DNA of 64,000 nt from the NCBI GenBank assembly GCA_963835575.1, contig CAWIGG010000005.1:96001-160000 (forward strand), written 5' to 3'. Position 1 is the first letter of the stretch. Every line of letters begins with the position of its first letter. Made by a program: the position numbers. Shown here one piece after another: positions 21,001 through 24,000 of this stretch. This stretch comes from an uncultured Spirochaetota bacterium. GTDB lineage: Bacteria > Spirochaetota > Brevinematia > Brevinematales > JAOACQ01.

Positions 21001-24000
21001 ATTCATAGATTTCACAATTTCAGTGAAATCTGTGTAATCTGTGGTTTAACAGTTAGTTCCAAAAGATGTTCCCGATTTTCAAAAATATTTCTAAAACAAA
21101 AATTTGAGTGCTTTTTTTAAATAATTATACTATAATTTATAGTGAGGTCTCACAATGAAGAAAAAATCAATTGTGCTTTTATCGGGCGGACTGGATTCGG
21201 TTGTCAATTTTAAAATGGCCTTATTAAGGACGGAAGTGGAACTCATCCTGACTTTTGATTACGGCCAGGCTGCCAGAGCAAAAGAGATTAAAGCGACTCG
21301 CATGATCTCGGAGAAATTCAAAATTCTTCATCATATCATCCCTCTGGATTTTCTGGCCAATCTGGAGCCGAACCTGACCAAAGGGATAATTCCCAATTTC
21401 AATTCGCGCAAGCTGGATGACAGGGCCTATACCTCTAAAAGCGCAAAGGCCGTCTGGGTGCCGAACCGGAACGGCATCTTCCTCGCAATAGCCGGGGCTT
21501 ATGCCGATAAATACGGCCTTGAAACCATTATTACAGGCTTTAATGAAGAAGAAGGCAAAACTTTTCCCGACAACACGCAGGATTTCCTTGACAGGGTCAA
21601 TAAGTCATTTAAATTTTCGACGCTTAATCATCCGAAAGCGAAAAGCTATACAATCGAGATGGATAAAAAAGATATTGTCCGGCTCGGGATTGAAATCGAC
21701 GCGCCATTTGAATATGTCTGGAGCTGTTATCATGGAGAAGATAAAATGTGCGGCAGATGCGAGTCCTGCCAGAGGCTGAAAAGGGCGCTGGCCGAAAATG
21801 ATTTTATGCAGGATTTTATTAAAATAAACCGCTGGGGTTTTAAATGAAATCCAGGTTCATAACAGACAGAATAAAATACGACGGGACACAACTCAGTTCT
21901 CATTTCGCTTATAAAAATTTTAATATCCCGGGCAACAGCATTGTCGCCTTTATCGGCCCTGTTGATGTCAGGCTTACTGAAATGGTGGATATTGAGGATG
22001 TGATCCTCAAAGAAAGGATCTCCTCGGACGGGATGCTTAATTTCATTATTGAAATATTCAATGCGGACCTGACCGTTGCAATCTGCCTTCAAAGGCTTTT
22101 TATGTCGATTATCATGGAAGAATTGAACCGGCTCTTGAAAGGCCTTTATATAACCCGCGACGGCGATGACCTTTATTATCAGGAACGGAAGCTTTCCGTT
22201 TCAATAGCCACGGTCAGCCCCGTTTCATCCCTCATTCATTGCGCTCTCAATATTAAGCCGACAGGCGCGCCGGTAAAAATATCCTGCCTTGAAGAAATGG
22301 GGATTAACGCTCCCGATCTGGCAGATGTCATATTAAGAAAATTCGTTAAAGAATATGAGGAAATTGATTTCGCGCGGGTAAAGGTGAATTGGGTCAAATA
22401 AGACTAAAAGAGGAATTATGTTTACAGGAATTATCCGGTATACGGGCCAGATTACCGGAATAAAAAGCGTCACTCAAGGTAAAAGACTGCAAATTAAAAC
22501 AGACAGCGCATTGACCGCTAAGCTCGAAAAAGGCATTTCGAGTATTGCCATCGACGGTTCCTGCCATACAGTTGAGGAATTTGATAAAAACACATTTACC
22601 GTTTTTTCCAGCTTTGAGACTCTGCAGAAAACGACTCTGGCCTCGGTCAAAAGCGGCGGTCTGGTAAACCTTGAGCTGTCCCTCACCCCCGACAGCCTCC
22701 TGGACGGGCATATTGTGCAGGGCCATGTTGACGGGACCGGAAGGATTTCATCCATCCGGAAAAAAGGAGAGGCTTATCTGATCCGTTTTACCGCCGACCA
22801 TTCTCTCCTGAAGTATTTAGTTGAAAAAGATTCAATCGCCGTAGACGGCGTCAGCCTGACTCTTTTCAATATTGATGAATCGACATTTCAGACAGCCGTT
22901 ATACCGGAAACGGCGATAAACACCACTCTTCTTAAAAAACCCGAGGGAAGCCTTGTCAATATCGAGGTAAACATCCTGGCCAAATACGCGAAGAAATTCC
23001 TAAATCTCTATTAATTTTTCCTTCGGCTCGCCCAGATAATAGCCCTGGGAAAAATCAATGCCCATTTCCATGCTTTTATCATAGACTTCCTTGGAATGGA
23101 CGAATTCCGAGATAGTCTGCAGTCCCAGCTCGCGCGCGAAATTGGCAATTGTCCGTGTAATGATCTGAGAGTTTTTGTCGATATTGATATTTTTTATCAG
23201 GGAAGAATCTATTTTGATATAATCGACCTGCATATGAACAAGGTGGGAGAAATTGGAATAGCCGGTGCCGAAATCATCGATGGCGATCTTGCACCCGCAC
23301 TTTTTCACATAATTGATAAATTCAATAACCTCTTTGTAATTTTCGATGTCCTCGGTTTCCAGAAGCTCAAAAACAACGCGGGGACAGATCCCCTTATTGA
23401 TTTTCAATATTTCATAGATATAGCTGATCGTCTTTTCGTCCATGATATCATCCAGCGACAGGTTGAGGGAAAACTCATAATTATTATCCCGGAAAAACTC
23501 AAAAGACTTTTCCACCATCATTTTTGTCAGGTAACGGTACAGCCTCGCTTTTTTTGCGATATTCAGGAAATTAAGAGGCGCCACGATATTGCCGTTTGTG
23601 TCTATCATCCGCATCAAGCATTCGTATTTCTCAATTTTACCAGTATGATTATTCTGGATCGGCTGAAAATAGGGAATAATGCGGTTTTCTTTTATCGCGT
23701 TCTTCAGCTTTTTCGTCCATTGTATATTGTTTTCATATTCCTTTACAATTTCCATAAAATCCTGGTAAACGACATATTTCTTTCTGGAAATCTTCGCTCT
23801 TTTCAGAGCCATATCGGCATTCCTGAGGGCGCTCTTCCCGATTTCCATTCCCTCGATAGAAGCTATGTCTTTCTGGACCGTTCCTATGCCGACGCTGACG
23901 GTTATGTAAATCTCCGTTTCCCTGTAAACAAAAGCCCTGTCCATCACTTCTTCAGACAAATATATTCCCCAGTATTCAAGGTCTTTAATGCCGACTTTCC

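What a model noticed while it worked through the whole genome (the two positions that open the first line are those of the whole stretch)
21155..22401. DUF366, a biotin/lipoate-ligase-fold protein, is a partner of QueC in 7-deazaguanine synthesis
g03062 (DUF366, no function known) overlaps the stop of queC; the pairing holds widely and extends to queD-queC-DUF366-queE-folE operons, placing DUF366 in preQ0/queuosine biosynthesis. It has the BPL/LplA catalytic fold with an invariant R-x-G-D-D...K-L-S-V-S-I-A-T motif.
Evidence so far: neighbours.tsv: near in 1590 of 2614 genomes with both; queC in 75 of 80 metagenome loci, directly upstream in those printed (91); model pLDDT 87 matches 2DDZ, then lipoate/biotin ligases (103, 107); no paper holds the whole word DUF366 (94).
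(Added by a program. Inside this text positions count along the whole contig: contig position 96,001 is position 1 of the stretch shown here. "Call 12" and the like, gene names such as g00115 and contig names such as C1 are that model's own, and its searches are not shown. The text may have been shortened before it was handed on; [...] marks where a part breaks off. The agent that wrote the report below was given it as the finding of a first reader that could run no searches.)

Follow-up and report, generated by a model that had tools for sequence, protein, structure and literature searches.

The report
Unstudied helper gene for preQ0 synthesis
A protein family of unknown function (DUF366), shaped like the enzymes that attach biotin or lipoate, sits among the genes that build the precursor of the tRNA and phage-DNA modifications queuosine and archaeosine, and goes with one particular variant of the last enzyme, which suggests an overlooked fifth component of that pathway.

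Summary
queC (21155-21847) overlaps a DUF366 gene (21844-22401) by ATGA. DUF366 has the biotin/lipoate-ligase core (2DDZ Z 29.7; BPL 12.9, LipB 12.4). Corrections: only K116 of the quoted motif is invariant, and in an archaea-leaning sample DUF366 precedes queD more often (36 of 80) than it follows queC (20 of 80).

Added here: this QueC is a subtype lacking the canonical His (YxQxH) and Cys (FPDN for YPDC). In four mixed phyla, 93 of 93 genomes with this subtype have DUF366, against 6 of 185 with other QueCs (kin are not independent). Its sister clade is glutamine-fed Gat-QueC (phage 9g), which shares the signature; no Gat-QueC phage record in INPHARED matched DUF366. Uncultured phages carry DUF366 in deazaguanine clusters.

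Pathway membership is about 0.93. Best mechanism (0.4, inferred): DUF366 forms the amide, CDG to ADG, beside QueC. Against: four viral loci hold both DUF366 and a glutaminase; some canonical QueCs coexist with it; E. coli H39A and C134A were made but not reported inactive. No DUF366 paper was found. The scan noted the queC pairing before on other DNA.

The parts
21155..21847 (+). [quoted passage not shown]
21260..21286 (+). QueC Y36-E44 (YGQAARAKE): Y-x-Q-x5-E with Ala where canonical QueC has the His of YxQxHxxE; same spacing as Gat-QueC and Cap9
21536..21574 (+). QueC G128-N140 (G-F-N-E-E-E-G-K-T-F-P-D-N): replaces the canonical D-x-x-G-Y-P-D-C loop; aromatic and Asp that hold the base in Cap9 are kept, Cys is Asn
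21844..22401 (+). DUF366 (PF04017) gene, 185 aa, bare biotin/lipoate-ligase catalytic core without the C-terminal accessory domain; homologue of PDB 2DDZ
21844..21847 (+). ATGA overlap of the queC stop and DUF366 start (translational coupling inferred)
21988..21999 (+). DUF366 D49-x-x-D52, family-specific acidic pair lying about where biotin ligase has its GRGR loop (weak alignment); candidate reader of the deazaguanine ring (inferred)
22156..22212 (+). DUF366 R105-T123; G-D-D-L aligns with biotin ligase W-P-N-D, K116 with its catalytic Lys
22237..22251 (+). DUF366 H132-x-x-x-N136, aligning with biotin ligase G-I-G-I-N; invariant His sits at a glycine of the ligand pocket
22418..23014 (+). riboflavin synthase gene 16 bases downstream, probably on the same transcript; not shown to be part of the system

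Best explanation
DUF366 is a fifth, accessory enzyme of preQ0 synthesis that works at the nitrogen-entry step. Canonical QueC adenylates 7-carboxy-7-deazaguanine (CDG), amidates it with free ammonia to ADG, then dehydrates ADG to preQ0. One branch of the QueC family lost the His and Cys around the amine/acyl-adenylate site and splits into two sister groups: one fused to a glutaminase (Gat-QueC), the other stand-alone and nearly always with DUF366. DUF366 most likely forms the amide: it binds CDG or CDG-AMP in the pocket that holds biotinyl- or lipoyl-AMP in its relatives and promotes attack by ammonia, either adenylating CDG itself or taking the adenylate from QueC, and QueC completes the nitrile. 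Shown here: gene context, co-occurrence, fold, conserved residues, QueC signature and tree. Inferred: substrate, reaction, any dependence of QueC on DUF366. In this genome the product would go on to queuosine, since folE, queD, queE, queF, tgt and queA are present.
For: The fold's known chemistry is carboxylate adenylation and amide formation (established knowledge), and the core Lys, Asp and Asn positions are kept. D49, K116, H132 are in 400 of 400 sequences, N136 in 399, which suggests catalysis on a polar ligand. No Cys is invariant (commonest Cys column 99 of 137, Val in this protein), so LipB-type thioester transfer is unlikely. Subtype link: 11 of 11, 23 of 23, 14 of 14 and 45 of 45 genomes in four phylum samples, against 0 of 69, 3 of 47, 3 of 22 and 0 of 47 for other QueCs (127/128). 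Gat-QueC shares the His-less, D-N signature (Ala 15 of 16, Asn 16 of 16) and is the sister group: SH-aLRT 97, and 79/80 with motif columns removed. 67 phage records match Gat-QueC, while DUF366 matches 1 of 50,697 records, a bacterial-looking one. Among 14 control genomes DUF366 rings only in M. jannaschii and M. acetivorans, not in S. acidocaldarius or H. volcanii. In the QueC homologue RoyL, Tyr41/His45/Glu48 contact the amine (bioRxiv 10.64898/2026.04.15.718813). One QueC-DUF366 fusion, P0150.
Against: No activity is shown. Libby et al. built E. coli H39A and C134A strains but their text names only Y35A, R99A, Y131A and Y189A as inactive; this QueC keeps all four positions (Y36, R105, F137, Y192), so it may work alone. 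Phage 9g Gat-QueC, with the same signature and no DUF366, makes dG+ in E. coli lacking queC (PMC6884629). DUF366 occurs together with a glutaminase in four viral loci: fused in L106, free-standing in L274, L303, L306, so the two are not strict alternatives. Fully canonical QueC coexists with DUF366 in 3 Bacillota genomes and lies in the same gene row in 2 metagenome loci. Most DUF366-linked phage QueCs keep His and Cys (10 of 11). His-less QueCs without DUF366 exist (4 cellular rows), and G170 has FPDN QueC with no DUF366 or queD found. The subtype is one clade, so the correlation rests on one origin plus co-transfer and co-loss. DUF366 lacks the GRGR loop and C-terminal domain that ligases use for ATP. 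The fusion is a one-member cluster.
Confidence: 0.4

Rival explanations
1. Nitrogen relay or scaffold: DUF366 does not make the amide but delivers nitrogen to QueC, for example by capturing the ammonia that QueE releases when it makes CDG, or by taking it from an amide donor, so standing in for the glutaminase of Gat-QueC.
For: Sister relation and largely complementary distribution with Gat-QueC; usual position between queC and queE; QueE releases ammonia (established knowledge).
Against: Glutaminase and DUF366 occur together in four viral loci. The fold has no known glutaminase member (own knowledge), and there is no invariant Cys.
Confidence: 0.15
2. Damage control or salvage: DUF366 hydrolyses escaped CDG-AMP, or strips CDG from wrongly acylated amines that a His-less, Cap9-like QueC could produce, or recycles ADG/CDG amides.
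For: The His-less Y-x-Q-x5-E spacing is shared with Cap9, which acylates a protein amine. Retention beside canonical QueC and next to a Vut_1 transporter in two loci (one scanned) fits a general housekeeping role.
Against: Gat-QueC phages manage without it. A repair enzyme would not be expected to track one subtype in 93 of 93 genomes.
Confidence: 0.15
3. DUF366 acts earlier, with QueD or QueE (binding or protecting CPH4 or CDG, or relieving product inhibition), and its tie to the QueC subtype is shared inheritance of one ancestral operon.
For: DUF366-queD(-queE) rows without queC dominate the archaea-leaning sample. It stays with queD/queE after queC is displaced in 8 genomes.
Against: In Brevinematales and Gastranaerophilales it is coupled to queC alone (77 of 80). 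G177 carries canonical queE-queC and no DUF366 in a phylum where 70 of 73 have it. QueD and QueE subtypes were not examined.
Confidence: 0.12
4. The pair makes something other than preQ0: a CDG-lysine or CDG-protein conjugate or another new deazaguanine, with DUF366 as the ligase or the acceptor.
For: The fold normally acylates lysines. QueC homologues Cap9, QatC and RoyL make CDG amides. Some phage clusters add a glycosyltransferase-like gene and glutaminase.
Against: This genome has the ordinary downstream path (queF, tgt, queA) and no other QueC. DUF366 N-termini are not Gly-conserved (Gly second in 4 of the 269 database proteins checked), unlike the Cap9 and QatC substrates.
Confidence: 0.08
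5. Non-catalytic binder or regulator of the pathway, like the enzyme-derived HisZ subunit of the same superfamily.
For: ATP-binding loop and accessory domain are missing; H132 and V119 fill glycine positions of the ligase pocket. HisZ-type chains appear in the fold search.
Against: Invariant Lys, His, two Asp, Asn and Glu across bacteria, archaea and phages; phages keep it.
Confidence: 0.08
6. The association is chance or operon hitchhiking.
For: 14 of 80 metagenome loci and two Bacillota genomes (G363, G423) show no nearby or no detected queC.
Against: It neighbours at least seven different deazaguanine genes in different orders, in cells and viruses, and co-occurs when unlinked.
Confidence: 0.02

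Closest known systems
Canonical preQ0 pathway FolE-QueD-QueE-QueC (E. coli, B. subtilis QueC; PDB 3BL5, 2PG3)
   Same: Same four enzymes present in the genome; QueC keeps SGGxDS, R-N, the aromatic and Asp of the base-binding loop, the conserved Lys, Tyr and zinc cysteines.
   Different: His of YxQxHxxE absent, YPDC is FPDN, and a fifth gene is coupled to queC.
Gat-QueC (Enterobacteria phage 9g gp06; Crenarchaeota)
   Same: Sister clade with the same His-less, N-x-E-E-x3-[YF]-P-D-N signature.
   Different: No glutaminase is fused here. Gat-QueC leads to G+ (PMC6884629); this genome has queF, tgt and queA, so Q is the expected end. Cultured Gat-QueC phages show no DUF366.
Biotin protein ligase / LplA / LipB superfamily
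   Same: Fold (Z 10-13 over 150-167 residues), catalytic Lys, N-D and G-I-N equivalents.
   Different: No GRGR loop, no C-terminal domain, no invariant Cys; own invariant D49, D52, H132. The genome has a separate intact BirA.
   Same: Same family: E 5e-39, Z 29.7, rmsd 1.2, 43% identity.
   Different: No function assigned. Its placement with biotin synthetases in SCOP is recalled, so the fold itself is probably not news.
Cap9/QatC protein deazaguanylation and RoyL amide synthetase
   Same: QueC-family CDG adenylation followed by amide formation; Cap9 has the same His-less spacing.
   Different: Cap9 keeps YxDC and sits in a CBASS operon with a Gly-N-terminal substrate; no such context here (QatC model 12.9 bits against cut-off 280).

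Membership tests
DUF366 / PF04017 | Profile score over the curated cut-off along the whole length | tested here: met
   211.5 bits, cut-off 29.9, residues 1-181
BPL/LplA/LipB superfamily | Catalytic-domain fold | tested here: met
   Z 12.9 (1WNL, rmsd 3.3, 159 aligned), 12.4 (2QHT, rmsd 3.7, 164), 11.4 (2ARS); Foldseek E 5e-8
BPL/LplA/LipB superfamily | Conserved catalytic lysine | tested here: met
   K116 invariant in 400 of 400; aligns with the KK(V/I)xG lysine of Aquifex biotin ligase, profile E 0.004
Biotin protein ligase proper | GRGR loop and C-terminal SH3-like domain | tested here: not met
   No such motif among conserved columns; the 185-aa protein ends at the catalytic domain
LipB/LipM/LipL acyltransferases | Catalytic cysteine for a thioester intermediate (recalled feature) | tested here: not met
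   No invariant Cys; best column 99 of 137 and Val in this protein
BPL/LplA ligases | ATP-dependent adenylation of a carboxylate | not testable with these tools
   Needs an assay
Canonical QueC (cluster 1 of PMC13329287) | SGGxDS, VPxRN, zinc cysteines, and the residues found essential (Y35, R99, aromatic 131, Y189) | tested here: met
   G12-D14-S15, P103-R105-N106, Y36, F137, Y192, C191/C199/C202/C205 invariant in 31 aligned; TIGR00364 over cut-off
Canonical QueC (cluster 1 of PMC13329287) | YxQxHxxE and YPDC motifs | tested here: not met
   YGQAARAKE and FPDN
Gat-QueC | N-terminal class II glutamine amidotransferase fused to QueC | tested here: not met
   230-aa stand-alone protein, no GATase domain
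Gat-QueC | His-less, D-N signature of the QueC domain (defined here from 16 fused proteins) | tested here: met
Cap9/QatC defence systems | CD-NTase or qatABD context and Gly-N-terminal substrate | tested here: not met
   Neighbours are recF and riboflavin synthase; DUF366 N-terminus not Gly-conserved
De novo queuosine pathway | folE, queD, queE, queC, queF, tgt, queA in the genome | tested here: met
   queG/queH not searched
De novo queuosine pathway | Q present in tRNA and dependent on these genes | not testable with these tools
   Needs LC-MS or APB gels

The most novel reading that the evidence does not exclude
preQ0 synthesis has a two-protein final step in methanogens, Thermococci and several bacterial phyla and phages: DUF366 is a biotin/lipoate-ligase-fold enzyme that acts on a nucleobase, converting CDG (or CDG-AMP) to ADG, and the His-less QueC branch never takes free ammonia unaided but needs either DUF366 or a glutaminase.
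Probability: 0.33. Interest if true: 0.82.

Novelty: new variant of a known kind. Interest (0 to 1): 0.66.

Why it matters
The four-enzyme route to preQ0 is treated as complete, and the 2026 survey of the QueC family (PMC13329287) does not mention DUF366 or this subtype in the parts I read. How QueC gets its nitrogen, and what Gat-QueC does, are open (PMC5699537). A solved structure (2DDZ), model archaea that carry the gene (M. jannaschii, M. acetivorans) and a standard E. coli complementation assay make the question testable at once. If true, it gives a function to a long-standing DUF, extends the biotin/lipoate-ligase fold to nucleobase chemistry, and changes how tRNA and phage DNA modifications are predicted from genomes.

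Tried and rejected
Complex prediction of QueC with DUF366 gave no verdict, score 0.00; it is used neither for nor against binding. A search for longer, fused forms found none at E 0.001 among 8000 candidates, although P0150 exists, so it was insensitive. Profile-profile alignments to biotin ligase were weak (probability 8-17%) and to two LplA sequences uninformative; the residue mapping rests. No DUF366 in PLSDB plasmids. No Rfam match near its gathering score around the operon, so no preQ1 riboswitch. Promoter scan: 12 consensus sites against 5.3 expected, none assignable. Replacement of QueD, QueE, QueF, FolE or TGT is rejected: phage clusters carry all of them with DUF366. A paralogue of BirA is rejected: BirA is intact elsewhere. 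My first rule, that every DUF366-linked QueC is FxDN, failed. A strict either-DUF366-or-glutaminase rule failed. My recalled locus tag PH1918 for 2DDZ led nowhere. Paper searches: DUF366 anywhere gave 35 papers, and none of the 20 listed concerns this family by title or abstract, several being about DUF3669; DUF366, COG2029 and PF04017 as whole words had no occurrence in the 10 listed of 11 papers; searches showed nothing on this family. Archaeal genomes could not be read by name, so the QueC motif of M. jannaschii, M. acetivorans, P. horikoshii and S. acidocaldarius is untested. Sequencing runs were not consulted.
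Full report
What is there. The window holds queC at 21155-21847 and a 185-codon gene at 21844-22401, overlapping by ATGA, followed 16 bases later by riboflavin synthase and preceded by recF. 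The second gene is PF04017 DUF366 (211.5 bits) and matches PDB 2DDZ at E 5e-39. Close homologues are named Brevinematales. The genome (94% complete) has one full-length QueC and, elsewhere, folE, queD, queE, queF, tgt and queA.

Fold and residues. An AlphaFold model from 137 sequences has pLDDT 98.0. It matches 2DDZ (Z 29.7, rmsd 1.2, 183 aligned), then biotin ligases (12.9), LipB (12.4) and LplA (11.4), then class II synthetase folds (Foldseek agrees). The homology shows in sequence too: the family profile finds Aquifex biotin ligase at E 0.004, and PF04017 hits this genome's BirA at E 1.8e-4. G107-D108-D109 aligns with the ligase W-P-N-D, K116 with the catalytic Lys, and H132..N136 with G-I-G-I-N. 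The GRGR loop and C-terminal domain are absent and no Cys is invariant. Among 400 distinct near-full-length sequences, D49, K116 and H132 are invariant and N136, Y12, D52, E70, Q83, K180 and D109 are in 393-399 (54 of 454 rows were dropped as duplicates or gappy). That SCOP already groups 2DDZ with biotin synthetases is my recall, not a call.

Neighbourhood. queC is directly upstream in 77 of the 80 closest genome loci, which are mostly two lineages. The row queD-queC-DUF366-queE-folE is in 21 of 28 Bacillota loci. In 80 metagenome loci ranked by likeness to an archaeal-type DUF366, queD follows directly in 36, queC precedes in 20, and 66 have some deazaguanine gene; 14 have none in the DNA held. 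Four of these lie beside an archaeal-type tgt, followed in the one scanned by an arcS-like gene, and one scanned neighbour is a Vut_1 transporter. So DUF366 marks the pathway, not only queC. One QueC-DUF366 fusion was found (P0150), a one-member cluster seen on 2 contigs.

Viruses. 19 IMG/VR loci encode DUF366, several redundant. Many sit in clusters such as queD-PRTase-queE-queC-DUF366-folE-queF-TGT-like. The TGT-like label is my reading of the sequences; Pfam gave no hit apart from a weak DUF6610. Four loci show a QueE-like and a TGT-like gene but no queC nearby, on contigs 22-41% complete. In a control of 80 viral loci picked by QueC (best of 538), 3 have DUF366; none of the 70 read as YPDC does. 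In 50,697 INPHARED records, 314 match QueC, 67 match Gat-QueC and 1 matches DUF366; that record has bacterial housekeeping genes around the match.

The QueC subtype. Libby et al. (PMC13329287; I read parts 1-3 of 5 of the text, part 1 of 3 of the supplement and two term searches of it) define canonical QueC by YxQxHxxE, VPxRN and YPDC. The QueC here has YGQAARAKE and G-F-N-E-E-E-G-K-T-F-P-D-N. Genome tests: in 151 Spirochaetota, 80 have QueC and 11 have DUF366; these 11 are the lowest-scoring full-length QueCs, all FPDN; of the other 69, 50 were read, 46 Y[PA]DC and 4 YPDT. In 301 genomes of the phylum of G151 (Bacillota by record title), 23 of 23 with the subtype have DUF366, against 3 of 47 others; 2 more have DUF366 and no QueC found. 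In 201 of the phylum of G152 (Actinomycetota by title), 14 of 14 against 3 of 22, plus 2 whose QueC fell under the threshold. In 101 of the phylum of G154 (Gastranaerophilales record), the same 45 genomes have both, 9 of them on different contigs, and 0 of 47 others have DUF366; these were classed by profile score, not by reading motifs. Totals: 93 of 93 and 6 of 185. In the phylum of G153, 70 of 73 have DUF366; of the three without, one has canonical QueC, one no QueC, and one (G170) FPDN QueC with no queD found either. Kin are not independent, the profile A3 included a few of the sampled genomes, and the subtype is a single clade.

Exceptions. In 8 genomes DUF366 remains in a queD or queE row from which queC is gone, with a YPDC QueC elsewhere: fully canonical in 3 Bacillota, His-less (W-x-Q-x5-E) in 5 Actinomycetota. 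Two metagenome loci have canonical QueC in the same row as DUF366. Viral DUF366-linked QueCs mostly keep His and Cys but change the Pro ([YF][RW]DC, 10 of 11). Four cellular His-less QueCs lack DUF366 (279 sequences passed a pattern filter that dropped, among others, the four YPDT rows and the Gat-QueC of L106). The dependence therefore runs one way: the subtype implies DUF366, not the reverse.

Link to Gat-QueC. Sixteen QueC domains from longer, glutaminase-type proteins, including phage 9g gp06, have the same signature: Ala at the His position in 15 and Asn for Cys in 16, against His in 38 and Cys in 45 of 45 other rows. They form the sister group of the DUF366-linked clade, SH-aLRT 97, falling to 79/80 when the motif columns are removed (85 rows, partly a random draw). 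Among control genomes DUF366 rings in M. jannaschii and M. acetivorans but not in S. acidocaldarius or H. volcanii, all of which have PF06508 matches; that Sulfolobus uses Gat-QueC is recalled. The motifs map to the site where nitrogen enters: RoyL Tyr41/His45/Glu48 contact the amine and Asp132/Cys139 the adenylate in modelling (bioRxiv 10.64898/2026.04.15.718813, passages and section 17), while the kept aromatic, Asp and Arg hold the base in Cap9 (bioRxiv 10.1101/2025.04.06.647259, passages). Cap9 is also His-less here.

Results against my reading. 9g Gat-QueC, without DUF366, yields dG+ in E. coli lacking queC, though it does not restore Q (PMC6884629, passages). H39A and C134A strains were built by Libby et al. 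but are not named among the inactive mutants; I could not see the figure. This argues against DUF366 being just an ammonia source, and is compatible with DUF366 consuming ammonia to make the amide.

Mechanism. I put pathway membership at about 0.93. The most likely job (0.4) is amide formation on CDG or CDG-AMP, because that is both the chemistry of the fold and the step whose residues differ in the partner QueC. Whether DUF366 adenylates CDG itself is open; the missing ATP loop favours transfer from a QueC-made adenylate. Rivals are nitrogen relay (0.15), repair or salvage (0.15), an earlier QueD/QueE role (0.12), a new conjugate (0.08), a non-catalytic role (0.08) and chance (0.02). All steps beyond context, fold, conservation and phylogeny are inferred.

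Novelty. Eight paper searches found no paper on DUF366. The neighbour table of the 2026 QueC survey shows five families for canonical QueC, all above 20%, and not PF04017; its Supplemental Data files, bioRxiv supplements and subscription papers were not visible and may hold the link. PMC5699537 (passages) calls Gat-QueC biochemically uncharacterised. PMC1414084 (one passage) lists PH0223 in a table whose caption I did not see. Earlier notes of this scan already paired DUF366 with the preQ0 genes and with a 'variant QueC' on other genomes; they are not counted as support. The reciprocal genome counts and the sister relation to Gat-QueC were worked out here. Verdict: a real, widespread and apparently unpublished variant of preQ0 synthesis, interest 0.66.

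Noticed in passing
L117 (MW495066.1, deposited as Microcystis phage MaAM05): The 30 kb around the DUF366 match are bacterial housekeeping genes (secDF, glyS, fabI, fliM, murJ); the record looks like a bacterial contig filed as a jumbo phage.
   Followed up: partly
L274:3319-5942, L303:9935-12630, L306:4622-7253: Phage cassette queC ([FY]WDC) - free-standing class II glutaminase - glycosyltransferase-like gene - DUF366; L295 has the first two without DUF366.
   Followed up: partly
L002:2945-10234 and L098, L099, L109: Large phages with queD, a phosphoribosyltransferase, queE, queC, DUF366, folE or folE2, and in some a bimodular queF and a TGT-like gene without a Pfam hit; candidate preQ1-type DNA modification.
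   Followed up: partly
L106:6671-11945: Probable archaeal virus with a TGT-like gene, folE2, DUF366 and a fused Gat-QueC with FPDN, all in one row.
   Followed up: partly
L103, L104, L105, L107 (gene just upstream of DUF366): About 240-aa TGT-like proteins (weak DUF6610 hit in one); the copy in L107 has an N-terminal extension that looks like a homing endonuclease.
   Followed up: no
L368-L370, L390, L391: A long-branch actinobacterial QueC with W in place of the Tyr found essential in E. coli (Y35) and no His, outside the que operon, in genomes that keep queD-DUF366(-queE).
   Followed up: partly
L153-L155, L158: Spirochaetes of the same class as this genome have a QueC with YPDT in place of YPDC and no DUF366.
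   Followed up: no
L414:2541-3095, L430:7114-7671, L422:6909-7472: A two-CBS-domain gene follows DUF366-queD-queE in many archaea-leaning loci.
   Followed up: no
P0162: DUF366 fused to an N-terminal Clp_N domain; one sequence on a 1.7-kb contig.
   Followed up: no
window 22418-23014: Riboflavin synthase directly after DUF366; both pathways start from GTP, but conservation of this linkage was not checked.
   Followed up: no
window 28008-31253: Three AT-rich overlapping genes (149 aa, a 434-aa ParA-like P-loop protein, a 517-aa P-loop protein) that look like an acquired defence-type island; read by eye.
   Followed up: no
L113:13361-13915: Tad6 (Thoeris inhibitor) match in a phage locus that also has two glycosyltransferases, two queD genes and DUF366.
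   Followed up: no
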